Part shown: one piece after another, positions 6,848 through 44,082 of the stretch
Layout: each line of letters starts with the position of its first letter
How positions within the stretch are numbered: position 1 is the first letter of the stretch
Source: Candidatus Sumerlaeia bacterium
GTDB lineage: Bacteria; Sumerlaeota; Sumerlaeia; SLMS01; JAHLLQ01
DNA: 64,000 nucleotides
Reading direction: 5' to 3'
Assembly: GCA_019634695.1 (NCBI GenBank)
Contig: JAHCAW010000004.1
Coordinates: 64,831-128,830 of the forward strand
Notes under the pieces: model-generated
The model's input: only the letters and a program-made list of their open reading frames with translations
What the model was told of the DNA's origin: nothing
The model's database searches: none
Translations under genes and position numbers: made by a program

Positions 6848-6865
6848 CCCCGGGACCGGAGCATC

Positions 6866-15580: not shown

Positions 15581-16072
15581 GTGAAACGCTGGGCGCTGAT
15601 CGCAGTCTTTCTTGGGATCTCCTTCGGGGTGGCGGGGGGGCTGGGGCTCTACACGTTCTACTACGCCGAGGGCGCCTCGTACCTCTCCAACGACCCGGCA
15701 GCCTGCATGAACTGCCACGTCATGCGCGAGCAGTTCGACGGTTGGACCAAGTCGAGCCACAAGCACGTCGCCTCCTGCAACGACTGCCACACGCCGCATG
15801 ACTTCTTCGGCAAGTACATGACGAAGGCGATCAACGGCTACTATCACTCGCTGGCGTTCACGACCGGCAACTTCCACGAGCCGATCCGCATCAACGCCCG
15901 CAACCTGCGCGTGACCGAGAGCACCTGCCGCAGTTGCCACGCCGACATCGTCAACGCCATCGACGCGCATCCCCTGATCCCCGCCGAACCCACCGCCGCG
16001 GCCGCCGACCCGGCCGCCTGGCAAAGCATCTCCTGCGTGCGCTGCCACGCCTCGGTCGGACACCTGCACTGA
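15581..16072 (+). CDS. nrfH: NrfH tetraheme cytochrome c quinol dehydrogenase (NapC/NirT family)
   Basis: N-terminal TM helix plus four CxxCH motifs (CMNCHVM, CNDCH, CRSCH, CVRCH). The first is in the CxxCHxM context typical of NrfH. The gene is immediately upstream of nrfA. Start is GTG 15581. Confidence 0.85.
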   Translation: MKRWALIAVFLGISFGVAGGLGLYTFYYAEGASYLSNDPAACMNCHVMREQFDGWTKSSHKHVASCNDCHTPHDFFGKYMTKAINGYYHSLAFTTGNFHEPIRINARNLRVTESTCRSCHADIVNAIDAHPLIPAEPTAAAADPAAWQSISCVRCHASVGHLH

Positions 16073-16088
16073 CGAGGAAAGGAACCCC

Positions 16089-29335: not shown

Positions 29336-30073
29336 ATGCGTCGTCTCAAAGGTTTCACCCTGATCGAACTGCTCATCGTGGTGGCCATCATCGCCATCCT
29401 GGCCGCCATCGCGGTGCCCAACTTCCTTGAGGCCCAGGTACGCTCGAAGGTCTCGCGCGCCAAGTCCGACATGCGCACAGTGGCCACGGCCCTCGAGGCC
29501 TACACGGTCGACTACAACAAGCCCCCTTCCATTGTCGCCCGCCATGCCAGCATCACCAACTCGCCGCTGACGCCCAACAGCGTCCTCAACGGCCCCAGCC
29601 TCTATTATCCTCAGCAGACCCCGGGCGTTAGCTCGCGCCTGCTCGTCCTGACCACCCCCGTTTCCTACATCACCAGCGTCGGCCGCGACCCGTTCATCAA
29701 CCCGGCCGTCCGCTTCGCCATCTCCTGCAACGGCACCGCCCCCCTTCCCGAGTACGACACCTACGACTACGTCGACTCGTTCACCATCAACCCCAATGGC
29801 CCGTACCCGACCTTCAACACCGGCGTGAACGCCAACCGCGCGGCCGGCCTCTCCTCCGGTTCCGCCTGGCACCTCGTCAGTGCCGGCCCGGACCTTGAGA
29901 ACTGCTTCGGTGGTGGCCACCAGGGCCAGACCGCCTTCCATGAGGGCGGCGCCGACTACGATCCGACCAACGGCAGCGTTTCGCGCGGCGACATCGTCCG
30001 CGTCTCGTCCGCCCGCGGCGAGGTCTATCCGAACTTCGCCCCGGCCCACAACCGCGCCGCTCGCGGCAACTGA
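29336..30073 (+). CDS. GspG-like pseudopilin with a prepilin-type N-terminal cleavage/methylation domain
   Basis: MRRLKG/FTLIELLIVVAIIAILAAIAVPNFLEAQVRSKVSRAKSDMRTVATALEAY. No other secretion-system genes are adjacent. Confidence 0.85.
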   Translation: MRRLKGFTLIELLIVVAIIAILAAIAVPNFLEAQVRSKVSRAKSDMRTVATALEAYTVDYNKPPSIVARHASITNSPLTPNSVLNGPSLYYPQQTPGVSSRLLVLTTPVSYITSVGRDPFINPAVRFAISCNGTAPLPEYDTYDYVDSFTINPNGPYPTFNTGVNANRAAGLSSGSAWHLVSAGPDLENCFGGGHQGQTAFHEGGADYDPTNGSVSRGDIVRVSSARGEVYPNFAPAHNRAARGN

Positions 30074-30272: not shown

Positions 30273-31496
30273 ATGGGCGAACGGTGCTGGATCGGAAGAG
30301 TCGGGACTATCGTGGCGCTGGCCCTGTGGGCGATCGGCACGGCGGCGTGCGCCGGAGGCGCAGGGCGACAGGCGAGTGAGGTCGCTCCCGGCGCCGGGCA
30401 CCTGATCATCATCGGCGGGGCGCTCAGCGCGGAGAACGAGGAGATCTACGGCCGCATGGTCCAGTTGGCCGGCGATGGCCCGATCGGCATCGTGCCAACG
30501 GCCAGCGGCGTGCCCGACGAATCGCTGACCGGCGCCCTCGCGCGATTCGACCGCTGGGGAGGCGCGGGGCGCTCGGTGGCGATCGACATCCGGCACGACC
30601 AACCCGAGCAGGCCGCCAATCCCGAGTGGGCCGCCCGAATCGCCACCTGCCGCGGCATCTTCTTCACCGGCGGCGTGCAGACCCGCATCCTGAACGCATT
30701 CCGACCCGAGGCGGGCGACACAGTGTGCCACCACGCCGTGCAGGGCGTGCTGGCGGCGGGGGGCTTCGTGGCCGGTTCCTCGGCGGGCGCGGCGATGATG
30801 TCGGACCCGATGATCGCCGGCGGCACAAGTCGCGCCGCGCTGCGCTTTGGCGTCGTGGACGCGGACGCCGCGGATCGCGGAGTCCGCATCGGGCGCGGCA
30901 TGGGGTACTTCCCGTACGGACTCACCGATCAGCACTTCCTTGCCCGCGGCCGCCTTGGACGCCTGATCGTCGCACTTGAGCAGACCGGCCTCGATTTCGG
31001 CTATGGCGTCGAGGAGAACCGCGCCATCCACGCCGACCTTGCACGCCACCGGATCGAAGCGATCGGCGGCCCGCATGCGGTGCTCATGGTGGACGTCTCG
31101 CGCATGCAGCGCCAGGGCGCCAGCCTGCACAACGTGCGGCTGGCGCTGCTGAGTTCGGGTGACGCGGTGAACGCGCTGGACGGTCGCGTCGTCCCGGCGC
31201 CCGGCCGGATGCCCGCAACGATCCCCGTGGAGGCAGGCGCGTCGGAGCTGCGGCACGACAACGCTTGGGGGCGCAATGTCATCCCCGAGCTGATGGCCGA
31301 CCTTGTCCTCGGGCCCGCACCACGTGCCGTCGCACTCGATCCCGACTTCGAGATCGTCCTCTCAACCGACGCCGAGACCCGGCGGTTCGACGATCCCGAG
31401 CCGGGCTCGCGTACCCCCACGATCGTCAACTTGCGACTCGACATTCGGCCGCGCGCGACAGGCACCGCGAGCGTCGACGGGAGCCGGACGCCATGA
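30273..31496 (+). CDS. Exported cyanophycinase (peptidase S51), CphE-like
   Basis: HLIIIGGA, FFTGGVQ, the catalytic-Ser motif GSSAGAAMMS, and LTDQHFLARGRLGRLIVAL. The N-terminus looks like a signal or lipoprotein sequence (IVALALWAIGTAAC). ATG 30273 follows GGAGAG; the track start is 30222. Confidence 0.8.
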   Translation: MGERCWIGRVGTIVALALWAIGTAACAGGAGRQASEVAPGAGHLIIIGGALSAENEEIYGRMVQLAGDGPIGIVPTASGVPDESLTGALARFDRWGGAGRSVAIDIRHDQPEQAANPEWAARIATCRGIFFTGGVQTRILNAFRPEAGDTVCHHAVQGVLAAGGFVAGSSAGAAMMSDPMIAGGTSRAALRFGVVDADAADRGVRIGRGMGYFPYGLTDQHFLARGRLGRLIVALEQTGLDFGYGVEENRAIHADLARHRIEAIGGPHAVLMVDVSRMQRQGASLHNVRLALLSSGDAVNALDGRVVPAPGRMPATIPVEAGASELRHDNAWGRNVIPELMADLVLGPAPRAVALDPDFEIVLSTDAETRRFDDPEPGSRTPTIVNLRLDIRPRATGTASVDGSRTP

Positions 31497-33583
31497 GCCG
31501 CCGTCCTCTCGCGTTGCTCGCCTGTGCCCTTTGGGGCGCGCATCTGCCCGCACAGAACGCCGACCGCCCGTGGACGCACACGCGCTACGAGTTGCTGCCC
31601 CCGCACACGGCCAGCTTCCGCATTCACTATCGCCTGTCGGCCGCGACGCCCGGCCAGACCCACGCCTTCAACACGGTCCGCCGCGGCAGCGAATGCTCCG
31701 ACATCGCCGTCTTCGACGAGGCCACCGGCGCCCCGCTGGCGCACACCGTGCTCGACGGCGAGGCCGCACGCGCAGCCGGTCACGAACAGGCCAGACCGGA
31801 CACTTCGTACATCCACGTCGATCTCCGCACGCCGGTTCCGGAGCACGCCGAACGACGGCTGCGCATCGAGAAGACCTATCGCGACGCGGCGACGTACTAC
31901 CGCGATCAGGAGCGTATCGTCTTCGACCGCGCGCTGTCCGTGCCGCGAAACACGATCGTCCTGCCGCCGCACTACGAACTGATCGATTGCAGCGTGCCCG
32001 TGCAACTGACCGTGGACGACGCCGGGCGCCTCGCGGTGTCGATGGTCCACAACACGCCGGGCAGCCTGCTGGTGCACCTGGTCGGCCGCCCGCTGCCGGG
32101 CAGCCTGTGGCGGCCGGGAAAACTCTCCGCCGAACTGGAACCCGCCAGCGCCGTCGCCAGCGATCCGGCCTTCCAGCCGCGCGCCGAAGACTCGCGCACC
32201 ATCGTCTACTTTCTCCAGCCCCCCGAGACGCACTCGTTCGATCTCTATCACGACCTGACCGTCACGCGCACGGGCCAGGACGCCTACCTCAATTGGGTAC
32301 GTGGCGGCAGCACGGTGGCGAATCCGCGCGGATGGAATCTCGACACGGGGCGCGAACTGGAAGCGCGCATCCTGCGGGGCGCGGAGATCGAAGCCGCCGG
32401 CCGCGCCGGCGCGAGTCCGATCGCCGCGGACCAGGAACTGGTCGTCGTTGGCTTCGACCCGATCGCCCCTGGCACGTCGATGCGGCTGCGCATCGAGGAG
32501 ACCTACACGGACCCGGGCCGCTACCGCATCGAGGAGGGCGAGCTCGTCTGGCATCGCGCGTTCGGTCGCGCGCGCAACGCCGTCGTGCTGCCCGAGGGCT
32601 GGTATCCCGTGGTGTCGAACATGCCCGCGACGATCACCGAGCAGGAGGACGGACGGGTGCGGCTGGAGTATGCAAATCCGCGCGCGGATCGGCTGGACGT
32701 GTACCTGCGCGCCCGGCCGCGACGGGTCGCCGAGGCCCGGCGCGTGCAGGGTGGGCCGCTGTGGCCGCTCGAAGTGACGTCGCCGCGGCAACTCGTACGC
32801 GAGGACAACTTGGCGCGCGCGCTCGAGGGGTTTGCCGCGAATCCCGACGACGAAGCGCTCGCCATCTCTGCCGGCCGCCATCTTGCCTGGTACGGCAGGT
32901 TTCAGGACGCGCTGGCACTCTACACCGACGCGCTCGCCCGTCACCCCGACAGCTTCCGCCTCCTTCGACACCGCGGTCATCGTCACCTGACCCTGCGGCA
33001 ATTCGACCGCGCGACCGACGATCTTTCCCGCGCGGCAGAAAAGCTCGAGGCCAACTGGCAGGCCGTTGCCACGCAGGACTTCGGCGACGACGACACCCCC
33101 GCCCAATATCGATGGTCCACGTGGTATCATCTCGGCCTCGCGCACTACTCCGCGCGGTCGTTCCCGGCCGCCGAGGCCGCATTCCGGCGCACGCTCGAAC
33201 TCTCGCCCGATGCCGACAAGCAGGCCGCCGCGACGTACTGGCTGGTCAACGCGCTGCGGCAACTCGGTCGCCAGGACGAAGCGCGCACGCTCGTCGAGCC
33301 CTTTCACGGCGGCATGACGATCAATGCCAACCTCTCCTACTTCGAGCTGATGCTGCTCTTCAAGGGGGAGCGCACCCTTCAGGAAACTCTCGACCTGGAC
33401 GATCCCTCGCATCCGCGCTTCGCGACGCTGGGCTTCGGCATCGCGAACGAGTTCCTGTTCAACGGCCGTCGCGACGAGGCCGTGGCGCTCTATCGTCGGA
33501 TCGTCGCGGGCACCGATTGGCTCGGGTTCGGGCACATCGGCTCGGAAGTCGAACTGCACGCCCTCGGGGAGGAGTTGCCGTGA
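31493..33583 (+). CDS. Secreted protein with an internally duplicated ~190-aa domain and C-terminal TPR repeats
   Basis: Signal peptide: LALLACALWGAHLPAQN. Repeated module: RLRIEKTYRDAATYYRDQERIVFDRAL...VLPPHYEL vs MRLRIEETYTDPGRYRIEEGELVWHRAF...VLPEGWYP. TPR-like C-terminus: ALALYTDALARHPDS..., AEAAFRRTLELSPD. The start overlaps the cyanophycinase stop (ATGA). Confidence 0.6.
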   Translation: MSRRPLALLACALWGAHLPAQNADRPWTHTRYELLPPHTASFRIHYRLSAATPGQTHAFNTVRRGSECSDIAVFDEATGAPLAHTVLDGEAARAAGHEQARPDTSYIHVDLRTPVPEHAERRLRIEKTYRDAATYYRDQERIVFDRALSVPRNTIVLPPHYELIDCSVPVQLTVDDAGRLAVSMVHNTPGSLLVHLVGRPLPGSLWRPGKLSAELEPASAVASDPAFQPRAEDSRTIVYFLQPPETHSFDLYHDLTVTRTGQDAYLNWVRGGSTVANPRGWNLDTGRELEARILRGAEIEAAGRAGASPIAADQELVVVGFDPIAPGTSMRLRIEETYTDPGRYRIEEGELVWHRAFGRARNAVVLPEGWYPVVSNMPATITEQEDGRVRLEYANPRADRLDVYLRARPRRVAEARRVQGGPLWPLEVTSPRQLVREDNLARALEGFAANPDDEALAISAGRHLAWYGRFQDALALYTDALARHPDSFRLLRHRGHRHLTLRQFDRATDDLSRAAEKLEANWQAVATQDFGDDDTPAQYRWSTWYHLGLAHYSARSFPAAEAAFRRTLELSPDADKQAAATYWLVNALRQLGRQDEARTLVEPFHGGMTINANLSYFELMLLFKGERTLQETLDLDDPSHPRFATLGFGIANEFLFNGRRDEAVALYRRIVAGTDWLGFGHIGSEVELHALGEELP

Positions 33584-34551
33584 GGATCGGCGCGTCGCTG
33601 GCATTGGCCCTGATGCTGTCCGGCTGCGGCGCGGCCGTGCGCACGGAGCGCACATCGTGCCCGCCGGACGCGGCGTGTGTCATTGCTCACGATCTCGGCG
33701 GCGGCGTGATCCTCGAAGCGGTGGTGCTGCCGGCAGGCACGTTCACGATGGGTTCCCCGGAATCCGAGGTGCCGCGCAAGGAAGACGAAGGCCCGCAGAC
33801 GCGCGTGACTCTCACGCGGTCGTTCGCGATCGGTCGCGCGCCCGTCACCGTCGAGCAGTTTGCGCGCTTCGTCGAGGCGACCGGCTATCGCACGGTTGCG
33901 GAGGTGGAAGGATGGTCGCACGAGTACACCGATGATGGAATCGCAGAGATGCCCGGCCGATCGTGGCGATTCCCGGGATTCGAGCAGGACGGTACGCACC
34001 CGGTGGTCTGCATCCATTGGGACGATATCATGGCCTTCTGCGCGTGGGCCTCGGCCGTGCTGGGAGCGCCGGTGCGCCTGCCCACCGAGGCCGAATGGGA
34101 GTACGCCTGTCGCGCGGGAACGGCGACGGCCTACTGGTGGGGGGACGACGTCGCCGACGGGTTCGGCCGTGCGAATCTGGCCGACGCCAGTGCCCGCCGC
34201 GCGATCCCCGCATGGGATCCGCCCGACGTTCCGTGGGACGACGGCTTTCCCCACACGTCGCCTGTCGGCGCCTTCGCGCCGAATCCATGGGGATTGTATG
34301 ACATGCACGGCAACGTCTGGGAGTGGTGCGCCGACTGGTATGGCGGGCCGCATGCGGGCGGAACGATAATCGATCCGGTCGGCGCGATCGACGGGGAGTA
34401 TCGTGTGCGACGCGGCGGCTCGTGGTATCGCGGGCCGGGCACCGCGCGATCCGCCAATCGGGGTCGCAGTCGCGCCGACTTCCGCGTCAACAATCGTGGC
34501 TTCCGGATCGTGATCGAGCTGGGCAACAACGGGGAGGCAGACCGGCGATGA
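33580..34551 (+). CDS. Lipoprotein with a formylglycine-generating-enzyme (FGE-sulfatase/SUMF1) domain
   Basis: Lipobox: LMLSGCGA. FGE-domain motifs: GTFTMGSP, HPVVCIHWDD, RLPTEAEWEYACRAG, GLYDMHGNVWEWCADWY, RVRRGGSW. The GTG start overlaps the previous stop (GTGA). Confidence 0.8.
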   Translation: MRIGASLALALMLSGCGAAVRTERTSCPPDAACVIAHDLGGGVILEAVVLPAGTFTMGSPESEVPRKEDEGPQTRVTLTRSFAIGRAPVTVEQFARFVEATGYRTVAEVEGWSHEYTDDGIAEMPGRSWRFPGFEQDGTHPVVCIHWDDIMAFCAWASAVLGAPVRLPTEAEWEYACRAGTATAYWWGDDVADGFGRANLADASARRAIPAWDPPDVPWDDGFPHTSPVGAFAPNPWGLYDMHGNVWEWCADWYGGPHAGGTIIDPVGAIDGEYRVRRGGSWYRGPGTARSANRGRSRADFRVNNRGFRIVIELGNNGEADRR

Positions 34552-35567
34552 GGAAGAGCAAACAGGCGGCAACGATTCTCGTGGCATTGGCCATGGGCAT
34601 TCTCGGATGCGGAAAGGCACCAACGATGGACGAGCGGGGCAATGGGGCAGAGCGGCGGGACTGGGCAATTGCGCTGCACGGCGGCGCGGGCACGATCGGT
34701 CGCGGGGGAAGCGAGCAGATCGCCGCCGAGTATCGCGTGGCGCTGGCCGTGGCCCTCGAGGTCGGCGTCCGCATCCTGAACGACGGAGGCACGAGCCTGG
34801 ACGCCGTCGAGGCAGTCGTCCGCCATCTGGAGGACTCGCCGCTGTTCAACGCGGGCAAGGGCGCGGCGATCACGCGCGACGGCGAACACCAGATGGATGC
34901 CGCGATCATGGACGGCGCGACGCTGGACAACGGCGCCGTGGCGGCCGTGCGCTTCGTGCGCAACCCGGTCTCGCTCGCCCGCCACGTCATGACCTCCACG
35001 CCGCATGCGCTGATCTCCGGCCCGGGGGCCGAACAGCTTGCCGAGCAGGCCGGCATGCCGACCGAACCGGCCGAGTACTTTCACACGCCGATGCGCTACG
35101 AGCGGTGGCTTCGGATGAAGCAACGCGAAGCCGTCAGCTCCGAAGCCGGCGAAATCGAGAAGGGCACGGTCGGCGCCGTCGCGCTCGACCGTCACGGAAA
35201 CCTCGCCGCGGCCACGTCGACTGGTGGGCTCACGAACAAGCTGTCGGGTCGCATTGGTGACTCGCCCCTGATCGGCATCGGCACCTACGCCAACAACGCG
35301 ACTCTGGCGATTTCCTGCACGGGGCACGGCGAGGAGTTCATTCGTCGCACGGCGGCGTTCCGCGTCTCCGCGTTGATGGAGTACGGTGGGCTTGGCGTCG
35401 GCGATGCGCTGGCGGAGGTGGTGCACAAGCAACTGGCACCGGACAGCGGCGGTGCCGTCGCCGTCGATTCCCACGGCACCATCGCGATGGACTACAGCAC
35501 GCGCGGAATGTACCGCGGCGCCGCTGACTCCACCGGACGATTCGAAGTCGCCATCTGGGAAGAGTAA
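34548..35567 (+). CDS. Exported isoaspartyl peptidase / L-asparaginase (Ntn hydrolase, Asparaginase_2 family)
   Basis: Lipobox: LAMGILGCGK. WAIALHGGAG, and the autoprocessing site GTVGAVALDRHGNLAAATSTGG followed by GRIGDSPLIGIGTYAN. The start overlaps the previous stop (ATGA). Confidence 0.85.
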   Translation: MRKSKQAATILVALAMGILGCGKAPTMDERGNGAERRDWAIALHGGAGTIGRGGSEQIAAEYRVALAVALEVGVRILNDGGTSLDAVEAVVRHLEDSPLFNAGKGAAITRDGEHQMDAAIMDGATLDNGAVAAVRFVRNPVSLARHVMTSTPHALISGPGAEQLAEQAGMPTEPAEYFHTPMRYERWLRMKQREAVSSEAGEIEKGTVGAVALDRHGNLAAATSTGGLTNKLSGRIGDSPLIGIGTYANNATLAISCTGHGEEFIRRTAAFRVSALMEYGGLGVGDALAEVVHKQLAPDSGGAVAVDSHGTIAMDYSTRGMYRGAADSTGRFEVAIWEE

Positions 35568-37763: not shown

Positions 37764-37825
37764 CTTGCGTCTCCTGAGGGTGGGAGTGGGTTTGCGGTCG
37801 AGGGTTCCGGGGTGGTGTTGGCGAG

Positions 37826-38974
37826 CTACGCGGGCTGTTTGGCGAAGGGAACGGGCACCAGTCCGGCGCGGCCCTTCATGAGGTACCGGGTGTAGTCGTG
37901 CGGGATGATCGGGCGAGGTTGCGTGCCCGCGCCGCAGGCGCGACCGAGCGCGGCGATCATGGCAACGAGCGCCTCGGCATCGGCTACCGACACCATCTCG
38001 GTGGCGATCAAACCCGAGGAGAAGTCCTGGTTGTGATAGTGGCGCACGGGCATGCAGACCCCGCCGGCTCGCAACCCGGCGCGCGCCAGCGGCGTGGCCT
38101 CGCAGGTGCCCTTGTCCATGAGTGCGCGGCGGGCGTTGATCTCCTGGGCGCCGGTCAGGCCCCACAACAGGTCCACGAGGGCGCCGTCGAAGGTGGTGGA
38201 CCGGTCGCCGCACCGGATGATGGCTCCCTCTCCAGCGACCACGGGGCCGACCTCGCCGCTGGTTTCGACCGACAGAAACAGCGCGTCGGGATTCACCAGC
38301 GAGGCGAAGTCGGGGTCCTCGATCAGGCAGAGCAGGCCGCAGAATCCGGCCTCCTCGGCACGCGTGAAGATCAGCGTGAAGTCGAGCGGGGCGTCGTCGG
38401 ACTCGGCGAGTCGGCGCAGAGCCTCGATCATCGCCGCGCATCCGGCCAGGTCGTCGCACGCGCGCGAGCGCAGGAAACCATCCTCGCCGACACGAAACGC
38501 CGGCAGATCCCACATGCCCAGGACGGCGCCGTCGATGGATTCCCCGGACTCGAAGACCACGAGACGATTGCCGGTCTCGGGCAGGTCTTCGCTCACCTCG
38601 ACGATGCGGGCGGGCACGCCCTCGTCGTCGCGCGAGCGGAAGAAGCGCACGGCCGCGCCGGGAAAGAAGCGCGTCATGACCCTGCCCTCGAAGCGGGCGT
38701 GGAACGTCGAATCGTGTCCGTTGCGATACGGGCCGTCACCGTCGAAGACGAAGCCCGGGTGGTCCAGATGCGCCACGAAGATGACCGGCGCGCCGACGGA
38801 CTCGCCTCGCGCCAGCCGGGCGATTCGGTTGCCGAAGGCGTCGCACCGGACCTTCACGCCCGGGATCGTGGCTAGCAGGCTGTCGAGCTCGCCGCACATC
38901 CAGTGCTCGCGGAAAGGCGCCGTCGGCACCCGCATCAGGCGCTCCGCGATCGTCAGGTACTGACTGTTGTTCAT
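37826..38974 (-). CDS. Metallopeptidase-like protein (M42/M28-type aminopeptidase fold)
   Basis: The motif VIFVAHLDHPGFVF resembles the M42 AHxDExGF metal site, but with His in place of Glu. Length is ~382 aa. The start was trimmed to ATG 38974. The family assignment is tentative. Confidence 0.5.
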   Translation of the reverse strand: MNNSQYLTIAERLMRVPTAPFREHWMCGELDSLLATIPGVKVRCDAFGNRIARLARGESVGAPVIFVAHLDHPGFVFDGDGPYRNGHDSTFHARFEGRVMTRFFPGAAVRFFRSRDDEGVPARIVEVSEDLPETGNRLVVFESGESIDGAVLGMWDLPAFRVGEDGFLRSRACDDLAGCAAMIEALRRLAESDDAPLDFTLIFTRAEEAGFCGLLCLIEDPDFASLVNPDALFLSVETSGEVGPVVAGEGAIIRCGDRSTTFDGALVDLLWGLTGAQEINARRALMDKGTCEATPLARAGLRAGGVCMPVRHYHNQDFSSGLIATEMVSVADAEALVAMIAALGRACGAGTQPRPIIPHDYTRYLMKGRAGLVPVPFAKQPA

Positions 38975-39015
38975 GCGTGTTATCCTGCCTCTTCGAGGCT
39001 CCGTGGTCTCGGTAC

Positions 39016-39708
39016 TCACTGGCCGGTGTAGGTGCCGACCGTCTGCTTTTGGGTGCGGGTGATGCTGCCCAGCGACACGGTGCCGTTCGTCGGGTCGTAG
39101 GGGAGCATGACGGAATGCCCGAGCAGGGTCGGGTGCGAGACGAGCATGCGCTGGCGGCCCGGCCCCAGCGAGGCGAGCACCCACATGCCCTGGATGTTGC
39201 GGGCGGCGATGGCGCCGTCGGTGTCAGGGTGGAAGCTGACGCGCCGATAGTCCATGTTGCACTGGTAGTAGTAGCGCTTGCCTGCGTGCGCGTCGCCGCC
39301 CGGATCCAGCGGATAGCCTGCCAGCGGGCCGTAGGGGACGACCTCGCCCGTGCGCGTCAGTCCCTGGAAGTCGCCCAGATTGGGCATGATGAACGGGTCG
39401 GGGAAGTTGGCCGTCGAGACATAGGCAATGGGGGTGCTCAGGTGATTGGGCACCACGCGCAGGACCCCGACGTCGCCCTGCGAGACGAATGGCGTCGGCG
39501 GATACTGAGGGTTGTCGATGCGGTAGGCTTCCAGAGCCGTGGCAAGGCTGCGCATGTCGGAGTGCGCCCGGCTGACCTTTGAACGGACCTGGGCCTCCAG
39601 GAAGTTCGGGACCGCGATCGCCGCCAGAATGGCGATGATCGCCACGACGATCAGGAGTTCGATGAGGGTGAAGGCGCGCGTAGGGGAATGGAGGGGATGC
39701 GATCGCAT
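39016..39708 (-). CDS. GspG-like pseudopilin, paralog of 29336..30073
   Basis: ...PTRA/FTLIELLIVVAIIAILAAIAVPNFLEAQVRSKVSRAHSDMRSLATALEAY. The N-terminal 55 aa are nearly identical to the other pseudopilin at protein level but diverge at synonymous sites. Confidence 0.85.
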   Translation of the reverse strand: MRSHPLHSPTRAFTLIELLIVVAIIAILAAIAVPNFLEAQVRSKVSRAHSDMRSLATALEAYRIDNPQYPPTPFVSQGDVGVLRVVPNHLSTPIAYVSTANFPDPFIMPNLGDFQGLTRTGEVVPYGPLAGYPLDPGGDAHAGKRYYYQCNMDYRRVSFHPDTDGAIAARNIQGMWVLASLGPGRQRMLVSHPTLLGHSVMLPYDPTNGTVSLGSITRTQKQTVGTYTGQ

Positions 39709-40022
39709 TGAGGGATGACTCCAGAGAAGTCAGGGGTGCCGGTGAGGGGCGGCGCTCCTGCCGAAAAGCCGGACGAACTCGAGGCTGCACCCATTCATAG
39801 CGAGAGAGTTGCAATCCTCCTAGCGCTCGTGCTTCGGTCATAAAAAATCTTCCTTGGTTTGCGACTTCACCTCCCTGCCCCGGGCGGACGATTTTCGCCC
39901 CCCGGCATCGCGTTCCTTCTTGCATCGATGCCACGCCGCCGCCAACACTCGCAAGTTGCCTCCCCACTTCCCTGATCGGATGGTTGCCCGGCGTGTTTTC
40001 GATCAATGCAACGAATTCTTCG

Positions 40023-41513
40023 ATGACCCCCTCACGGCGGACGGGAATCCTCGCGGCGCTGCTGCTCGGCGCCTGCCTGTCGCAACTGCCCGCCCAAACC
40101 CTTCTTCCCAGCGTCGAGGAGACGACCGTGACCTTCTCCCATGACACGGTGACCGCCTACCTCGAGCAGGCCGCCGCGGCGCCCCACATCGAGGTCACCG
40201 TCGAGGGCACCAGTCTTCAGGGCCGTCCGATCCATCTCGTGCGGGCCCGCCATCCCGGCACGGACCCGACGTTCCGCATTCTCTTCTTCGGCCTCCAGCA
40301 CGGCGACGAAATCGCCGGCAAAGACGCCCTCGTCCACCTCATCCGGCGCATCGAAACCAAGCCCGACCTGCTGCCCCGCCATGTGGACCTGTACGTGATG
40401 CCTTCGCTGAACCCCGACGGCGGCGAGGCCGGCACGCGCACCAACGCGGCCGAACGCGACCTGAACCGCGATCACCAGTGGCTGCACGAGCCCGAAACAC
40501 AGGCCCTGCACCGCGTCGCCCGGCGCATTCGACCGCACCTCGCCGTCGACGCCCACGAGTACGGGCGCGACCCCGCGCGCTATCGCCAGCGCGGCTGGAT
40601 GCGCTGGCCCGACATCATGATGGACACCGCCGGACATCCGGCCTTCGACCAGACAATCTATCAGGCCGGGCTGCGTTGGGTGGACAGCGCAACCGCCGAC
40701 CTTGCCGCCCGCGGCCACACCTACAGCCGCTACTACGTCGGCGGACCGCCCCCCGACGCCGAGCTGCGCTTCAGCACACTCGAACTCGACGACGCCCGCA
40801 ACGGCCTCGGCACCTACGGCGGACTCTCCTTCATTATCGAGTCCGGGCGCCGCTCCGGCCCCAACGCCGATGCCGACCTGCCCAAGCGCATCGATGCCTA
40901 CCTCGTCCTGCTCGAGCGATTCCTGACCCAAACCGAGTGGCACGAGTCCGACCGTCAGGCCGTCGAGCAATCCCGCTCGGCACCGCTGCCCGCCTTCCTT
41001 CCCACCAACTCGTTCTGGGGCAACGTCGGCCTCGTCGAGACCGACTATCCGGTGCTCGACATCGCGACCGGCGAAACGGTCCGCGTGCGCACCGCGAACT
41101 TCATGACCGAGCGCATCGTCAAGAGCACCGTCCCCACCCCACAGGCCTATGCCATCGCCCCCGAGGCGGCCGCCGTGCTCGGCGCGCTGCTCGATCGCCA
41201 TGGCATCGCGCATCGGGTGCTGGCCGAACCGCTCGAGCGCGTCGTCGAATCCGTCCGCCTGGTTTCCATCGACGATGCGGCGGATCCGCTGTACAACCGC
41301 TTCAGTGGTCGCCAGATGACCGAGCGCGGCGCTCCTGCGTCGCGCATGCTTGACGCCGGCACCCTGCTCGTCGACCTCGAAGGCCCCGACGCTCTGCGTG
41401 CCGCCCTGCTGCTCGAGCCCACAATGCTCTACGGCATCTACAAGCATGAAACGTATCGCGCGCTTGTGGCCTCCGACGGCACGATGCCCGTGCTGCGTGT
41501 CCTTGCCAAGTGA
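40023..41513 (+). CDS. Secreted M14-family zinc carboxypeptidase
   Basis: Signal peptide: ILAALLLGACLSQLPAQ. M14 motifs: FFGLQHGDEIAG, SLNPDGGE, RTNAAERDLNRDH. The start was chosen at ATG 40023; the track start is 39984. Confidence 0.75.
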   Translation: MTPSRRTGILAALLLGACLSQLPAQTLLPSVEETTVTFSHDTVTAYLEQAAAAPHIEVTVEGTSLQGRPIHLVRARHPGTDPTFRILFFGLQHGDEIAGKDALVHLIRRIETKPDLLPRHVDLYVMPSLNPDGGEAGTRTNAAERDLNRDHQWLHEPETQALHRVARRIRPHLAVDAHEYGRDPARYRQRGWMRWPDIMMDTAGHPAFDQTIYQAGLRWVDSATADLAARGHTYSRYYVGGPPPDAELRFSTLELDDARNGLGTYGGLSFIIESGRRSGPNADADLPKRIDAYLVLLERFLTQTEWHESDRQAVEQSRSAPLPAFLPTNSFWGNVGLVETDYPVLDIATGETVRVRTANFMTERIVKSTVPTPQAYAIAPEAAAVLGALLDRHGIAHRVLAEPLERVVESVRLVSIDDAADPLYNRFSGRQMTERGAPASRMLDAGTLLVDLEGPDALRAALLLEPTMLYGIYKHETYRALVASDGTMPVLRVLAK

Positions 41514-41534
41514 CCTCCAACGAAAGGCCCGACC

Positions 41535-43007
41535 GTGAGCCATTCGCCTTCCAGCCAGCCCCTCGGCCATCGTGAACCCACGCTGCTCGAGGCCCTGATC
41601 CCGGTCGCCGCCATGATTACCTTCCTGGGCGTCGGCTACGGCCTCCTTGGTATCCGCATCGAGCTGCTGCTCATCGCCTCCGCGATGGTGACGGGCATGA
41701 TCGCCTGGCGGCTCGGCATGACGTGGGGCCAGATGCAGGAGGGCATCGTCGAGAGCGTCTCGAAGGCCATGCCTGCGATCCTGATCGTCATCGTGGTCGG
41801 GGCGCTGATTGCCTCGTGGTTGGTCGCCGGCACGATTCCCTACATTGTCCATCACGGCCTGCGACTGATCTCGCCCACGTGGTTTCTCGTGACGGCCTGC
41901 TTGTTGTGCAGCCTCGTGTCGCTGGTCATCGGCACGTCGTGGGGCACCATCGGCACGGTGGGCGTCGCCTTGATCGGCATCGCGGAGGGTCTCGGTGTTC
42001 CGCTGGCTCCCGCGGCCGGCGCCATTGTTGCCGGTGCCTATTTTGGCGACAAGCTCTCGCCCTTCTCCGACACGACGAATCTCGCGCCCATCGCGGCGCG
42101 CTCCAACCTGTACGATCACATCGGGCACATGTTGTGGACCACGACGCCCGCCTGGCTGCTCGGCATGGTGGTCTACATGATCGTCGGGCGCGGCTCGGGC
42201 AACGTCGCCGAGTCCGCCTCCGTCGTCGAGCTGTCCACGGCGATCGAGACGCACTTCAATCTGCACGTCGTGTTGCTGCTGCCCGCGCTGATCACGCTGG
42301 TCGCCGCGGTGCTCAAGAAGCCGGTGATTCCCGGCATGCTGCTCTCGATCGTCGTGGCACTGGGCCTCTCCTTCCTGATGCAGGATCTCGACGAGCGCGT
42401 GCTCGGCGCAGCGGGCCGTTGGGAACAGGGCCATCCGTCCTGGGTGCGCACGACGCGCACGCTGGTCTTCGGCGTCAAGCCCGCCACGGACAGCACGGCG
42501 CTCAACAGCATCCTGGGCCGCGGCGGCATGGAGTCCATGATGGGCACCACGCTGATCGCGCTCTGTGCGTTCGCCTTTGCCGGCATCGCCAGCCGCGCCG
42601 GCATGCTCGCCGTCATCCTGCGCGCCCTCAGCCGCATCGCCCGCACCACCGGCCAGCTCGTCGCCGCCACCGTCGCCTCCTGCCTGACCGTCGCCGGCAT
42701 CACCGGCAACTCCTACCTGTCGATCCTCGTTCCCGGCGAACTCTTCGCCGACGCCTACAAGGAGCGTGGTCTGGCGGCCAAGAACCTCTCCCGCACCACC
42801 GAGGACTCCGGAACCGTCGTCGTGCCCCTCATCCCGTGGAGCATCGCCTCCGTTTTCATCTTCAGCGTCCTCGATGTCCCGGCGACGCAGTACGCCCCAT
42901 GGGCCATCATGTGCTATGCGGGCTTCGTGATCGCCCTGATCTACGGCTTCACGGGCTTCAAGATCGCCCCCCGCACGCGCGACGACGAGACCATCCCGGG
43001 CAGTTGA
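41535..43007 (+). CDS. nhaC: Na+/H+ antiporter, NhaC family
   Basis: Polytopic membrane protein with NhaC signatures: GTSWGTIGTVGVALIGIA, AGAYFGDKLSPFSDTTNLAP, SGTVVVPLIPW. Confidence 0.85.
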   Translation: MSHSPSSQPLGHREPTLLEALIPVAAMITFLGVGYGLLGIRIELLLIASAMVTGMIAWRLGMTWGQMQEGIVESVSKAMPAILIVIVVGALIASWLVAGTIPYIVHHGLRLISPTWFLVTACLLCSLVSLVIGTSWGTIGTVGVALIGIAEGLGVPLAPAAGAIVAGAYFGDKLSPFSDTTNLAPIAARSNLYDHIGHMLWTTTPAWLLGMVVYMIVGRGSGNVAESASVVELSTAIETHFNLHVVLLLPALITLVAAVLKKPVIPGMLLSIVVALGLSFLMQDLDERVLGAAGRWEQGHPSWVRTTRTLVFGVKPATDSTALNSILGRGGMESMMGTTLIALCAFAFAGIASRAGMLAVILRALSRIARTTGQLVAATVASCLTVAGITGNSYLSILVPGELFADAYKERGLAAKNLSRTTEDSGTVVVPLIPWSIASVFIFSVLDVPATQYAPWAIMCYAGFVIALIYGFTGFKIAPRTRDDETIPGS

Positions 43008-43092
43008 TCCGCATTCCCCGCTTTACTCGGGCCCTCTGCCGGTGTAATCGGAAACTGGATAGCGAAGCACCGATCTGCCCGGGGATCCCCAC

Positions 43093-44082
43093 ATGAATCG
43101 CAAACAGATCGAAGCCCTCATCTACGTCAACCGGCACGGTACCTTCAAGAAGGCGGCCGAGGCCATCTACTTCGAGTCCGCCGGCGACGAGTACATCACT
43201 CCCGAGTCGATCCAGTATCGCGTCAAGCAACTCGAGCAGGAACTCGGCGTCACGCTCTATCGCAAGAAGCAGGGCAGCACCCAGGTGCGCATCACGCGCG
43301 AGGGCCAGCTCTTCCTCAAGGAGGCCGTCGACGTCTACTCCCGCATGATGGAGTGGCGCGACCTCTTCCTCGAGCGGCCCGGTGGCCTGCTCACCCTCGC
43401 GGCCACGCAGACCGTCCTGATCAACCGCATCCACGGTGTCATCGAGCGCTACCACCGGCTCTATCCCGACGTCACCATCCGAGCGCACAACTCGCACGGC
43501 CTCGAGATGGAGCAGATGGTGGCCGAGGGACGAATCGACTTCGCGATCTCCACGCGTCCGCCGTCGGACTCCGACCTCGAGTACGTGCTGTGGATGCGCA
43601 CCGATCTGGTCGTGGTCACTCCGAAGGGGCACCCCCTGACCAAGAAGAAGAAGGTGACGGTCGAGGAGGTGGCCGAGTATCCGCTCGTCCTGCTCGAGCC
43701 CGAGCCGCACAGCGACCGCGAGAAGCTCGACCAGGCCTTTCGCGACAAGGGCATCCGGAAGCTGAACATCGTCTTCGAGACCTCCAACTCCGAGATCCTC
43801 CTCGCCTACGTGGAGTCCGGCATGGGCGTCACGATCACCTCGGAAACGTCGCTCGTGCGCAACCAGCGCAAGGTCGACCATGTGCCGCTCGCCGACAACA
43901 TCGGCCGCAGCGAGGTCGGCGTGCTGGTGCGCCGAGGCCAGTATCTGCCGGGCAAGGTGCGCGAGTTCCTGCGCCTGCTGGACCCCCGGATCGACGAGTG
44001 GCTGCGCCAGCGCGACACCGAGACTGTGGAGGCGCCGTCCGAACCGCGCATGCGCAAGCGCCGGCCCCGGCTGCCTGGCTGA
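43093..44082 (+). CDS. LysR-family transcriptional regulator
   Basis: N-terminal wHTH (LIYVNRHGTFKKAAEAIY...VKQLEQELGVTLYRK) plus a LysR substrate-binding-type C-terminus. Confidence 0.8.
   Translation: MNRKQIEALIYVNRHGTFKKAAEAIYFESAGDEYITPESIQYRVKQLEQELGVTLYRKKQGSTQVRITREGQLFLKEAVDVYSRMMEWRDLFLERPGGLLTLAATQTVLINRIHGVIERYHRLYPDVTIRAHNSHGLEMEQMVAEGRIDFAISTRPPSDSDLEYVLWMRTDLVVVTPKGHPLTKKKKVTVEEVAEYPLVLLEPEPHSDREKLDQAFRDKGIRKLNIVFETSNSEILLAYVESGMGVTITSETSLVRNQRKVDHVPLADNIGRSEVGVLVRRGQYLPGKVREFLRLLDPRIDEWLRQRDTETVEAPSEPRMRKRRPRLPG

What the first reader, a model, noticed from the sequence alone, without database searches (positions are those of the whole stretch)
30273..35567. Translationally coupled, fully exported four-gene operon bracketed by cyanophycinase and isoaspartyl peptidase
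Gene 1 is a cyanophycinase (GSSAGAAMMS, DQHFLARGRLGRL) with a signal or lipoprotein N-terminus. Gene 4 is an Asparaginase_2/isoaspartyl peptidase (GTVGAV autoprocessing site) with a lipobox. Established biochemistry: cyanophycinase releases beta-Asp-Arg dipeptides, which isoaspartyl dipeptidases then split. Between them lie a 696-aa secreted protein (duplicated domain plus TPR) and an FGE-sulfatase-domain lipoprotein. All three junctions are start/stop overlaps: ATGA at 31493-31496, GTGA at 33580-33583 and ATGA at 34548-34551.

Inference: this is an extracytoplasmic cyanophycin (or related beta-aspartyl polymer) scavenging system with two uncharacterised components. No cyanophycin synthetase is in the window.
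Basis: partly seen in the sequence, partly recalled or inferred. Interest (0 to 1): 0.65.

Follow-up and report, generated by a model that had tools for sequence, protein, structure and literature searches.

The report
Exported cyanophycin-scavenging operon with two extra genes
This is a four-gene operon, probably from a Sumerlaeota-like bacterium, that appears to digest the nitrogen-storage polymer cyanophycin outside the cytoplasm. That is a known kind of scavenging locus, here carrying two conserved accessory proteins of unknown role.

Summary
Four + strand genes (30273-35567) join by ATGA/GTGA/ATGA overlaps, and all four products carry signal or lipoprotein N-termini.

- **Gene 1** is a cyanophycinase-family S51 peptidase. 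It scores above the TIGR02069 cut-off. The Ser-His-Glu triad is present, and six of the seven pocket and catalytic positions checked are invariant in 38 relatives.
- **Gene 4** is an IaaA-type isoaspartyl peptidase, not a glycosylasparaginase.
- **Gene 3** has the FGE fold but lacks both catalytic cysteines. PvdO is its closest solved relative.
- **Gene 2** has two ribophorin-I-like beta-sandwiches plus a TPR region.

The full four-gene order recurs in two other lineages at 42-71% identity, and subsets occur in four more. Gene 3 belongs to a nine-member orthogroup that mostly sits beside this cyanophycinase clade. The sandwich part of gene 2 belongs to a widespread stand-alone family that is otherwise not linked to cyanophycinase.

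Conserved neighbours are an NhaC/ArcD-like transporter, a LysR regulator and M14 and M42 peptidases. Relatives also carry YfcC-like transporters and ArgZ.

Clusters of cyanophycinase with isoaspartyl peptidase in genomes lacking cphA are already described as cyanophycin-scavenging loci. This is therefore a new variant of a known kind. What is new is hydrolysis entirely in the envelope and the two accessory genes, whose function is only inferred.

The parts
30273..31496 (+). g1: exported (probably lipoprotein) cyanophycinase-family S51 serine peptidase, 407 aa. Ser170 is at 30780-30782, His221 at 30933-30935 and Glu248 at 31014-31016. It has a ~110-aa C-terminal extension beyond the CphB core.
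   Evidence: TIGR02069 scores 135.7 bits against a cut-off of 126.6. phmmer hits PDB cyanophycinases 7uqv, 3en0 and 7uqw. The equivalents of Q101, S132, Q173, H174, R178, R180 and R183 are invariant in 38 homologues. The AF2 model has pLDDT 91.7, and Foldseek gives TMt 0.79-0.89 to cyanophycinase structures.
31493..33583 (+). g2: secreted 696-aa protein. It has a signal peptide, two tandem ribophorin-I-like beta-sandwich domains (about 31577-32092 and 32201-32719), a TPR region (about 32798-33322) and a conserved C-terminal tail.
   Evidence: TPR hits in Pfam. Internal duplication of 31% identity, E=1e-23. AF2 pLDDT is 85.5 for residues 1-430. Foldseek matches OST1/ribophorin I 6s7o_E at 5e-10 and M1 aminopeptidase N-domains. 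Full-length orthologues lie in L001 (60%) and L084 (42-51%).
33580..34551 (+). g3: lipoprotein (LSGC lipobox) with an FGE-sulfatase fold that lacks both FGE catalytic cysteines. It is PvdO-like and belongs to a 9-sequence orthogroup.
   Evidence: PF03781 at 3e-64. Best PDB hit is PvdO 5hha, 2e-35. Gly285 and Ala289 occupy the FGE Cys positions in 8 of 9 orthogroup members. Orthologues at 58-71% identity sit next to g1-type cyanophycinase and/or g2 in L001, L084, L171/172, L173, L174 and L177.
34548..35567 (+). g4: lipoprotein (ILGC lipobox) IaaA-type Ntn-hydrolase, an isoaspartyl aminopeptidase / plant-type asparaginase, 339 aa. The autoprocessing nucleophile Thr207 is at 35166-35168.
   Evidence: PF01112 at 5.5e-101 across the full length. 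Best PDB hit is the E. coli IaaA/EcAIII precursor 2zak at 272.7 bits, against 138 bits for glycosylasparaginase. GTVGAV, GRIGDSP and SCTGHGE all align. The lipobox is conserved in L001, in L084 (with a revised start) and in L173.
37826..38974 (-). Conserved neighbour: M42-family aminopeptidase with no signal peptide.
   Evidence: PF05343. Orthologues lie beside the cluster in L001 (63%), L176 (50%) and L166 (52%).
39016..39729 (-). Conserved neighbour: prepilin-type (N_methyl/T2SSG) pseudopilin-like protein. The exact start was not determined.
   Evidence: PF07963 and PF08334. Orthologues lie next to M42 in L001 (63%) and L176 (60%).
40023..41513 (+). Conserved neighbour: exported M14 metallocarboxypeptidase-like protein. 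It is not a CphZ.
   Evidence: PF00246. Best PDB hit is 4a37, and no CphZ entry appears. Orthologues lie in L084 (43%), L176 (42%) and L089 (42%).
41535..43007 (+). Conserved neighbour: NhaC-family membrane transporter, a candidate Arg importer. Its second-best model is the arginine/ornithine antiporter ArcD.
   Evidence: TIGR00931 scores 441.6 bits (cut-off 370). NF052307 ArcD scores 331.6 bits, below its cut-off. It is 67-77% identical in L001, L084 and L169, always near the cyanophycinase.
43093..44082 (+). Conserved neighbour: LysR-family regulator.
   Evidence: PF00126 and PF03466. It is 52-58% identical next to cyanophycinase in L084, L086, L169 and L176.

Best explanation
The four genes form one translationally coupled operon. 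It encodes a cyanophycin-scavenging pathway that works in the cell envelope, either the periplasm or the cell surface.

**Steps whose family assignment is shown, with the activities inferred.**
- g1 is a lipoprotein CphE-like cyanophycinase. It would cut the poly-(beta-Asp-Arg) polymer into beta-Asp-Arg dipeptides.
- g4 is a lipoprotein IaaA-type isoaspartyl aminopeptidase. It would split the dipeptide into Asp and Arg while still outside the cytoplasm.

**Steps that are inferred.**
- The free amino acids enter through the conserved neighbouring NhaC/ArcD-like transporter. In relatives a YfcC/DcuC-type transporter is also present.
- Expression is controlled by the adjacent LysR regulator.

**The two middle genes.** They are accessory and probably non-catalytic.
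- g3 is a PvdO-like FGE-fold lipoprotein without the FGE cysteines.
- g2 is a twin beta-sandwich plus TPR protein.
- Most likely they bind or present the insoluble polymer, or hold the enzymes together at the membrane.
- This last step is inference from fold, localisation and gene linkage only.
For: **Operon and export.** Coupling and export signals are verified.

**g1.**
- It passes the NCBIfam cyanophycinase equivalog cut-off.
- It keeps the catalytic triad and the Gln/Asp/Gln/Arg pocket residues. The pocket residues checked, other than the Asp172 equivalent, are invariant across 38 family members.
- It has the cyanophycinase fold.

**g4.** It is nearest to E. coli IaaA and has the nucleophile and substrate-binding motifs.

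**Synteny.**
- g1-g2-g3-g4 recurs in a Ca. Sumerlaeia MAG (L001) and in L084.
- g1-g3-g4 occurs in L173, and g1-g3 in L171/172.

**Neighbours point to arginine and aspartate handling.**
- NhaC/ArcD-like transporter, 67-77% identical across loci.
- YfcC-like 'basic amino acid antiporter'.
- ArgZ arginine dihydrolase in L171.

**The wider cyanophycinase clade (87 loci).**
- IaaA is adjacent in 10 of 87 loci. In the 5 with a visible N-terminus that are well matched (45-55% identity to g4), it is also a lipoprotein.
- A DcuC/YfcC transporter is nearby in 14 of 87.

**Literature.** Clustering of cyanophycinase with IaaA or IadA in genomes lacking cphA, often with amino-acid transporters, is interpreted as cyanophycin scavenging (PMC10206079). 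Sec-exported cyanophycinases without cphA are reported in marine Acidobacteriota (PMC8528874).
Against: - No activity data exist for any of the four proteins.
- The TIGR02069 score is only 9 bits above the cut-off.
- The closest PDB entry to g1, by both sequence and fold, is titled 'pseudo-CphB' (7uqv). I could not read the paper. Motif conservation may therefore not guarantee cyanophycinase activity.
- IaaA enzymes are promiscuous (PMC10206079), and g4 is below the NCBIfam beta-aspartyl-peptidase equivalog cut-off (299 against 567).
- A lipoprotein enzyme in a diderm cell can reach a 25-100 kDa insoluble polymer only if it is surface-exposed. That is untested.
- g2 and g3 are dispensable in close relatives (L166, L168, L169, L176). 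The g2-g3 pair also occurs behind a two-component system without a cyanophycinase (L177).
- The sandwich family of g2 is not linked to cyanophycinase in any of 79 other genomes.
- Absence of cphA is known only for this 64 kb window.
Confidence: 0.6

Rival explanations
1. g1 is a cyanophycinase look-alike, a 'pseudo-cyanophycinase'. The operon would then salvage some other beta-aspartyl or Asp/Asn-containing envelope or environmental substrate, such as isoaspartyl peptides from damaged proteins, other Asp-backbone polymers, or asparagine through the asparaginase activity of IaaA.
For: - The best PDB match to g1 is 7uqv, 'pseudo-CphB' (72 bits against 53 bits for true CphB).
- The TIGR02069 score is marginal, and Pfam S51 is below its cut-off.
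- IaaA is promiscuous (PMC10206079).
- M14 and M42 peptidases nearby suggest general peptide salvage.
Against: - All residues described for the CphB cyanophycin pocket are retained, and most are invariant in the family.
- Recurrent linkage to arginine-related genes (ArcD-like, YfcC-like, ArgZ) fits an Arg-rich substrate.
- 7uqv itself keeps the same motifs, so the name alone says little.
Confidence: 0.2
2. g2 and g3 form an independent two-gene envelope module. It could be a structural or protein-protein scaffold like PorK/GldK-type FGE-fold lipoproteins, or a PvdO-like maturation factor. On this view it merely landed between the two cyanophycin genes and does not take part in cyanophycin degradation.
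For: - The g2-g3 pair occurs without an upstream cyanophycinase in L177 and without a downstream IaaA in L174.
- The g2 sandwich family is stand-alone, with no conserved neighbours, in 79 other genomes.
- Close cyanophycinase relatives lack both genes.
- L176 shows g2 decayed and g3 lost while cyanophycinase and IaaA remain.
Against: - Of the seven distinct loci known to carry a g3-orthogroup member, five have a g1-type cyanophycinase within two genes upstream, usually with overlapping stop and start codons.
- That includes two loci where g2 is absent.
- This is hard to explain without a functional link between g3 and the cyanophycinase.
Confidence: 0.25
3. g3 is a catalytic enzyme rather than a binding protein. 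It would be a PvdO/EgtB-family type oxidative or other activity that modifies the polymer, the dipeptide or arginine.
For: - NCBI names this family 'SUMF1/EgtB/PvdO family nonheme iron enzyme'.
- PvdO, the best PDB hit, is annotated as dihydropyoverdine dehydrogenase.
- The orthogroup has specific conserved His, Glu, Trp and Arg positions: T74, E110, H114, Y116, E123, W186, W237, H258 and R306.
Against: - The FGE Cu-binding cysteines are absent.
- There is no DinB-type iron domain as in EgtB.
- g3 scores far below the PvdO equivalog cut-off (162 against 500).
- No extra chemical step is known to be needed for cyanophycin breakdown.
Confidence: 0.12

Closest known systems
Cyanophycin-scavenging ('cyanophycin utilization') loci: cyanophycinase + IaaA/IadA + amino-acid transporter in genomes lacking cphA1 (Ben Hania et al. 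2017, as cited in Sharon & Schmeing 2023, PMC10206079)
   Same: - Cyanophycinase and an isoaspartyl peptidase lie within 5 kb; here 3.05 kb separates them.
- No cphA is nearby.
- Amino-acid-type transporters and a regulator are adjacent.
- The cyanophycinase is exported.
   Different: - Two extra conserved genes (g2, g3) sit between the enzymes.
- The isoaspartyl peptidase is itself a lipoprotein, so the dipeptide would be split outside the cytoplasm rather than after import.
- The transporters are of the NhaC/ArcD and YfcC/DcuC types.
- The host is a Sumerlaeota-like lineage.
Extracellular cyanophycinase CphE (Pseudomonas anguilliseptica; Obst et al. 2002, cited in PMC10206079) and intracellular CphB (PDB 3en0, 7uqw)
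   Same: - S51 fold, Ser-His-Glu triad and conserved Arg/Gln pocket.
- Like CphE, g1 is about 400 aa with an export signal.
   Different: - g1 is probably lipid-anchored rather than freely secreted.
- It is only 27-30% identical to solved CphB structures.
- It was not compared directly with the CphE sequence, which was not available here.
- It carries a ~110-aa C-terminal extension with no PDB match in the whole-chain search.
IaaA / EcAIII isoaspartyl aminopeptidase (PDB 2zak, 1k2x)
   Same: - Full-length Asparaginase_2 Ntn hydrolase.
- Gly-Thr autoprocessing site.
- GRxGDSP and CTGxGE motifs.
   Different: - It has a lipoprotein signal, whereas the E. coli enzyme has none (my recollection, not tested here).
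- It is below the NCBIfam equivalog cut-off.
PvdO (PDB 5hha) and other non-FGE members of the FGE-sulfatase fold (pFGE/SUMF2, PorK/GldK)
   Same: - FGE-sulfatase (C-type-lectin-like) fold.
- Periplasmic or lipoprotein location.
- Absence of the FGE catalytic Cys pair.
   Different: - It is far below the PvdO equivalog score.
- There is no pyoverdine context.
- It forms its own small orthogroup linked to cyanophycinase genes.
Ribophorin I / OST1 luminal domain and the N-terminal domain of M1 aminopeptidases
   Same: The two tandem beta-sandwich domains of g2 match these folds (Foldseek 5e-10 and 1e-5).
   Different: - The similarity is in fold only: 8-15% identity and TM about 0.29 for the two-domain arrangement.
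- It is a bacterial secreted protein, here fused to a TPR region.
- No catalytic domain is attached.

Membership tests
Cyanophycinase (MEROPS S51; TIGR02069; CphB/CphE) | Ser-His-Glu catalytic triad (Ser132/His174/Glu201 in Synechocystis CphB numbering; recalled from Law et al. 2009) | tested here: met
   Ser170, His221 and Glu248 align to the triad of 3en0. Ser and His are invariant in 38 homologues, and the acid is Glu or Asp in 37 of 38.
Cyanophycinase (MEROPS S51; TIGR02069; CphB/CphE) | Conserved substrate-pocket residues Gln101, Asp172, Gln173, Arg178, Arg180 and Arg183 (recalled from Law et al. 2009) | tested here: met
   Q136, D219, Q220, R225, R227 and R230 are present. All are invariant in 38 sequences except D219, which is conserved in 36 of 38.
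Cyanophycinase (MEROPS S51; TIGR02069; CphB/CphE) | Score above the curated equivalog cut-off | tested here: met
   135.7 bits against 126.6, a narrow margin. Pfam Peptidase_S51 gives only 18.6 bits against 23.9.
Cyanophycinase (MEROPS S51; TIGR02069; CphB/CphE) | Cyanophycinase fold, closer to it than to dipeptidase E | tested here: met
   Foldseek TMt is 0.79-0.89 (E 5e-19 to 1e-15) to 7uqv, 7uqw and 3en0, against 0.59-0.69 to PepE structures.
Cyanophycinase (MEROPS S51; TIGR02069; CphB/CphE) | Hydrolysis of cyanophycin to beta-Asp-Arg | not testable with these tools
   This needs an enzyme assay. Caveat: the nearest PDB entry is titled 'pseudo-CphB'.
Cyanophycinase (MEROPS S51; TIGR02069; CphB/CphE) | Similarity to the characterised extracellular CphE (Q8KQN8) | not tested
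   The sequence is not held in any tool. Only the length (~400 aa) and the export signal agree.
IaaA isoaspartyl aminopeptidase (Asparaginase_2 Ntn hydrolase) | Full-length PF01112 domain with the Gly-Thr autoprocessing nucleophile | tested here: met
   5.5e-101 over profile positions 1-309 of 309. Thr207 in GTVGAV aligns to the first residue of the EcAIII beta-subunit.
IaaA isoaspartyl aminopeptidase (Asparaginase_2 Ntn hydrolase) | Closer to IaaA / plant-type asparaginases than to glycosylasparaginase or taspase | tested here: met
   272.7 bits to EcAIII 2zak, against 138 bits to glycosylasparaginase and 104 bits to taspase.
IaaA isoaspartyl aminopeptidase (Asparaginase_2 Ntn hydrolase) | NCBIfam beta-aspartyl-peptidase equivalog cut-off | tested here: not met
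   299.2 bits against a cut-off of 567. It is a family member, but not an E. coli-type equivalog by this rule.
Formylglycine-generating enzyme (FGE) | FGE-sulfatase fold | tested here: met
   PF03781 at 3.2e-64.
Formylglycine-generating enzyme (FGE) | Pair of catalytic, Cu-binding cysteines after the RGGS motif | tested here: not met
   Gly285 and Ala289 occupy these positions in g3 and in 8 of 9 orthogroup members. g3 is therefore not an FGE.
PvdO | Equivalog-level similarity | tested here: not met
   162 bits against a cut-off of 500. PvdO is only the best solved relative.
Cyanophycin-scavenging locus (PMC10206079) | Cyanophycinase and an isoaspartyl dipeptidase no more than 5 kb apart | tested here: met
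   3,052 nt lie between the g1 stop and the g4 start, in the same operon.
Cyanophycin-scavenging locus (PMC10206079) | No cphA1 in the genome | tested here: inconclusive
   None is found among the larger ORFs of the 64-kb window. The rest of the genome was not available.
Cyanophycin-scavenging locus (PMC10206079) | Accompanying amino-acid transporter | tested here: met
   An NhaC/ArcD-like transporter lies at 41535-43007 and is conserved next to the cluster in L001, L084 and L169. YfcC-like transporters occur in L001, L084 and L171. Their substrate is not shown.
Ribophorin I / OST1-like twin beta-sandwich | Homology rather than fold resemblance | tested here: inconclusive
   Foldseek E is 5e-10 but TM is about 0.29 and identity 8-10%. 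There is no sequence-profile hit in Pfam or NCBIfam.

The most novel reading that the evidence does not exclude
g3 and g2 are dedicated, previously unrecognised components of extracellular cyanophycin capture. g3 is a PvdO-like FGE-fold lipoprotein orthogroup found almost only beside this cyanophycinase clade. g2 is its TPR/twin-sandwich partner.

Together with the lipoprotein cyanophycinase and lipoprotein IaaA they would form a Sus-like surface machine. That machine would bind an insoluble polypeptide polymer and degrade it completely to free amino acids outside the cell. Alternatively, g3 would carry out a new chemical step on the polymer.
Probability: 0.25. Interest if true: 0.6.

Novelty: new variant of a known kind. 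Interest (0 to 1): 0.42.

Why it matters
Cyanophycin is a widespread nitrogen and carbon store, and who consumes it in nature is only partly understood. This locus indicates three things:

- A poorly studied phylum (Sumerlaeota-like) scavenges it.
- A whole clade of ~400-aa cyanophycinases is lipid-anchored, and is often paired with a lipid-anchored IaaA. Both hydrolysis steps may therefore happen outside the cytoplasm, whereas the usual model imports the dipeptide first.
- A small FGE-fold orthogroup is genetically tied to these enzymes. That gives a concrete, testable candidate for a polymer-binding or helper factor.

The work also flags a large, tightly conserved, unannotated family of secreted twin beta-sandwich proteins. 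The finding extends known biology and does not overturn it.

Tried and rejected
- **M14 gene as CphZ.** CphZ is an M14/AstE-family enzyme (PMC9974463), so I tested the M14 gene at 40023-41513. Rejected: its best PDB hit is the CCP-type carboxypeptidase 4a37, and no CphZ entry appears.
- **g4 as a periplasmic glycosylasparaginase.** Rejected: 272.7 bits to IaaA against 138 bits.
- **g3 as a true FGE or as PvdO.** Rejected: it has no catalytic Cys and scores far below the PvdO cut-off.
- **Conserved context for the g2 sandwich family.** I examined 80 species-representative loci. No neighbour family was shared beyond a lineage-typical ABC permease (16 of 73 loci). Only the Sumerlaeia MAG has cyanophycinase, FGE and IaaA nearby.
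- **g1 relatives in metagenomes.** None of 80 contigs carries g2 or g3.
- **Promoters and terminators around the operon.** The scan found nothing above shuffle expectation.
- **Literature on 'pseudo-CphB', on cyanophycinase with formylglycine, and on Sumerlaeota with cyanophycin.** Nothing relevant is held.
- **A faulty query.** The first M42 tblastn query was out of frame and gave false negatives. It was repeated correctly.


Full report
**1. The observation**

The window is about 68% G+C throughout.
- g1: 30273-31496, 407 aa.
- g2: 31493-33583, 696 aa.
- g3: 33580-34551, 323 aa, GTG start.
- g4: 34548-35567, 339 aa.

They are joined by ATGA, GTGA and ATGA overlaps, and each start has a GGAG-type ribosome-binding motif 7-13 nt upstream. 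The next gene downstream is on the opposite strand. A consensus promoter/terminator scan found nothing above shuffle expectation.

All four N-termini look like export signals:
- g1: ...WAIGTAAC, an atypical lipobox or a signal-peptidase-I site.
- g2: a classical signal peptide.
- g3: LSGC lipobox.
- g4: ILGC lipobox.

No signal-peptide predictor was available, so this rests on inspection and on conservation in orthologues.

**2. What the four proteins are**

*g1.* It passes the NCBIfam cyanophycinase equivalog narrowly, at 135.7 bits against a cut-off of 126.6. It aligns to the solved cyanophycinases 7uqv, 3en0 and 7uqw.
- Counting through the 3en0 alignment, Ser170, His221 and Glu248 correspond to the CphB triad Ser132/His174/Glu201.
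- Q136, D219, Q220, R225, R227 and R230 correspond to the pocket residues Gln101, Asp172, Gln173, Arg178, Arg180 and Arg183. The residue list is recalled from Law et al. 2009.
- In an alignment of 38 family members, the Ser, His, both Gln and all three Arg are invariant.
- The AlphaFold model is confident (pLDDT 91.7). It superposes on cyanophycinases with TMt 0.79-0.89, against 0.59-0.69 for dipeptidase E.
- About 110 C-terminal residues extend beyond the CphB core.

One caveat applies. The best PDB match, by both sequence and fold, is titled 'Pseudobacteroides cellulosolvens pseudo-CphB'. The paper is not in the library, so I do not know whether that protein is inactive.

*g4.* It is a full-length Asparaginase_2 Ntn hydrolase (5.5e-101). 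It is closest to E. coli IaaA/EcAIII (272.7 bits), well ahead of glycosylasparaginase (138 bits), and it conserves the Thr nucleophile and the GRxGDSP and CTGxGE motifs. It is below the strict NCBIfam equivalog cut-off.

*g3.* It has the FGE-sulfatase fold (3e-64), and its best solved relative is PvdO. The two cysteines that define FGE catalysis are replaced by Gly285 and Ala289. The same holds in 8 of the 9 members of its orthogroup. It is therefore not a formylglycine-generating enzyme.

*g2.* Its structure in order:
- A signal peptide.
- Two homologous beta-sandwich domains, 31% identical to each other, E=1e-23.
- A TPR region.

The model of residues 1-430 is confident (pLDDT 85.5). It resembles ribophorin I/OST1 (Foldseek 5e-10) and the non-catalytic N-domain of M1 aminopeptidases. 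No Pfam or NCBIfam model covers this part.

**3. Conservation of the arrangement**

| Locus | Source | Arrangement | Identity to window |
|---|---|---|---|
| L001 (also L004, L085) | Candidatus Sumerlaeia MAG JBBQYG010000018 | g1-g2-g3-g4 | 55 / 60 / 71 / 61% |
| L084 | Metagenomic contig | g1-g2-g3-g4 | 45 / 42-51 / 58 / 62% |
| L173 | Metagenomic contig | g1-g3-g4, no g2 | 59 / 58 / 56% |
| L171/172 | GCA_007133495.1, GCA_007124295.1 | g1-g3 with overlapping stop and start; divergent ArgZ; a second cyanophycinase | 46 / 70% |
| L174 | Metagenomic contig | g2(TPR)-g3, no IaaA downstream | 48 / 64% |
| L177 | Metagenomic contig | Two-component system, then g2-like (one sandwich + TPR), then g3 | 41-46 / 63% |
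| L176 | GCA_965610335.1 | Cyanophycinase, 123-aa g2 remnant, IaaA without a signal peptide; g3 lost | 43 / 55% |

- In L084 the annotated IaaA start hides an upstream ATG. That start restores a canonical lipoprotein signal (LTGC) and an ATGA overlap with g3.
- The 123-aa ORF in L176 keeps the last 22 residues of full-length g2 (hhalign probability 92%). Its N-terminus also looks g2-like by eye, which was not tested.
- All database sequences at or above 58% identity to g3, nine including the window's own, form one orthogroup. Below that, identity drops and protein lengths change.
- Of the seven distinct g3 loci, five have a g1-type cyanophycinase immediately upstream or one gene away.

A crude neighbour-joining tree places the g3-linked cyanophycinases on three branches. 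These are interleaved with relatives that lack g2 and g3 (L166, L168, L169). The pair is therefore accessory and has been gained or lost repeatedly.

**4. What g2 is outside this locus**

The twin-sandwich part belongs to a compact, strongly conserved family.
- It is about 48% identical across Acidobacteriota, Gemmatimonadota, Bacteroidota and Sphingomonas.
- There are more than 2,000 hits in the 90% clusters, but only 742 representatives at 50% clustering.
- Members are normally ~410-aa stand-alone secreted proteins.

In 80 species-representative loci, only the Sumerlaeia MAG has cyanophycinase, FGE or IaaA nearby, and no other neighbour is conserved. The TPR fusion is rare and coincides with the presence of g3.

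**5. The wider locus**

Conserved neighbours of the cyanophycinase:
- An NhaC-family transporter, 67-77% identical in L001, L084 and L169. Its second-best NCBIfam model is the arginine/ornithine antiporter ArcD.
- A LysR regulator, 52-58% identical in L084, L086, L169 and L176.
- An exported M14 carboxypeptidase-like protein, 42-43% identical in L084, L176 and L089.
- A cytoplasmic M42 aminopeptidase and a pseudopilin-like gene, in L001, L166 (M42 only) and L176.

In the window these lie at 37826-44082.

Relatives add further genes:
- A DcuC-family protein that scores as 'putative basic amino acid antiporter YfcC'.
- ArgZ in L171, scoring 985.7 bits, just under its own cut-off of 1025.

Among 87 loci anchored on g1 relatives:
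- An IaaA gene is adjacent in 10.
- A YfcC/DcuC-type transporter is nearby in 14.
- In the five well-matched IaaA neighbours with a visible N-terminus (45-55% identity to g4), IaaA is a lipoprotein.
- Two weaker matches (35-38% identity, L100 and L160) showed no obvious signal.

Most g1-family members carry a lipobox. A lipoprotein cyanophycinase paired with a lipoprotein IaaA is therefore a broader pattern. The g2-g3 insertion is confined to a small group of lineages.

**6. Mechanism**

*Shown:*
- Operon structure.
- Family membership.
- Catalytic residues.
- Export signals.
- Conserved linkage.

*Inferred:*
- g1 releases beta-Asp-Arg from external cyanophycin.
- g4 splits it in the envelope.
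- Free Arg and Asp are taken up by the NhaC/ArcD-like and YfcC-like carriers.
- No dipeptide transporter was found among the neighbouring genes that were annotated.
- LysR regulates expression.

For g2 and g3 the best-supported reading is a non-catalytic one: substrate binding, or scaffolding of the enzymes. The reasons are:
- The FGE fold is a peptide-binding, C-type-lectin-like fold, and it is used structurally in PorK/GldK and pFGE.
- The catalytic cysteines are missing from g3.
- The sandwich fold of g2 is the non-catalytic substrate-contacting domain of M1 peptidases.
- TPRs mediate protein-protein contacts.

This is inference. A catalytic role for g3, or an unrelated role for the g2-g3 pair, is not excluded. 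L177 and L174 argue for some independence of the pair.

**7. Comparison with what is known**

- Sharon and Schmeing report that cyanophycinase and IaaA or IadA cluster in 87% of genomes that have both but lack cphA1. These clusters often include amino-acid transporters. They interpret them as scavenging clusters, citing the 'cyanophycin utilization locus' of Ben Hania et al. 2017.
- Flieder et al. describe Sec-exported cyanophycinases without cphA in marine Acidobacteriota.
- CphZ, the dedicated dipeptidase, is an M14/AstE enzyme, but the window's M14 protein is not of that type.
- No paper in the library links cyanophycinase with FGE-fold proteins or with Sumerlaeota.

**8. Verdict**

The core idea is already known.

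What is new:
- The fully envelope-located, lipoprotein version of both hydrolytic steps.
- A small FGE-fold orthogroup genetically tied to this cyanophycinase clade.
- A TPR-fused member of a large uncharacterised secreted family.

I rate it a new variant of a known kind, of moderate interest (0.42). My confidence in the cyanophycin-scavenging explanation is about 0.6. The role of the two middle genes remains open.

Noticed in passing
window 31577-32719 (g2 residues ~29-409); loci L005-L083: The twin beta-sandwich part of g2 belongs to a widespread, tightly conserved family of secreted ~410-aa proteins. Members are about 48% identical across Acidobacteriota, Gemmatimonadota, Bacteroidota and Sphingomonas. 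The family has no Pfam or NCBIfam model, no conserved gene neighbours, and a conserved HSFxLYHD motif in the second domain. Its function is unknown.
   Followed up: partly
L176 9908-11264 (GCA_965610335.1): Between the cyanophycinase and IaaA lies a 123-aa ORF. It has a g2-like N-terminus by eye and keeps the last 22 residues of full-length g2 (hhalign E 6e-7), so it is a decayed g2. g3 is absent, and the IaaA there has no signal peptide.
   Followed up: partly
L171 239-2347 and L172 658-2766 (GCA_007133495.1 / GCA_007124295.1): A bifunctional arginine dihydrolase/ornithine cyclodeaminase (ArgZ) gene is divergently adjacent to the cyanophycinase-g3 pair. A second, more distant cyanophycinase paralogue lies convergent downstream. 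A YfcC-like transporter is also next door.
   Followed up: partly
L177 2212-5036 (JGI 3300051387): A g2-like protein with only one sandwich domain plus a TPR region overlaps a g3 orthologue (63% identity). The pair lies directly downstream of a histidine-kinase/response-regulator pair, and no cyanophycinase is present in the 4 kb upstream.
   Followed up: no
window 30273-31496 vs PDB 7uqv: The nearest solved structure to g1, by both sequence and fold, is deposited as 'pseudo-CphB'. Yet it shares the same catalytic and pocket motifs. The reason for the name could not be found in the held literature.
   Followed up: partly
window 23873-28644 (- strand): Two large tandem paralogues encode exported proteins that combine Golvesin_C, Amidase_3 (N-acetylmuramoyl-L-alanine amidase) and fibronectin type III domains. 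The mechanical ORFs overlap, so the true start of the downstream copy is internal.
   Followed up: no
window 2109-8515 and 15978-17513: A molybdopterin oxidoreductase, a 4Fe-4S subunit and an ethylbenzene-dehydrogenase-like (EB_dh) subunit form a type II DMSO-reductase-family cluster. An NrfA-type cytochrome c552 nitrite reductase gene lies further on.
   Followed up: no
window 35811-37770 (- strand): This is an exported protein of about 650 aa, convergent with g4, that carries a choice-of-anchor D / DUF1573-like C-terminal domain. It is not conserved next to the cluster in related loci.
   Followed up: partly
window 29336-30073 (+) and 39016-39729 (-): Two prepilin-type (N_methyl) pseudopilin-like genes flank the locus. 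The second is conserved next to the M42 peptidase gene in L001 and L176.
   Followed up: partly
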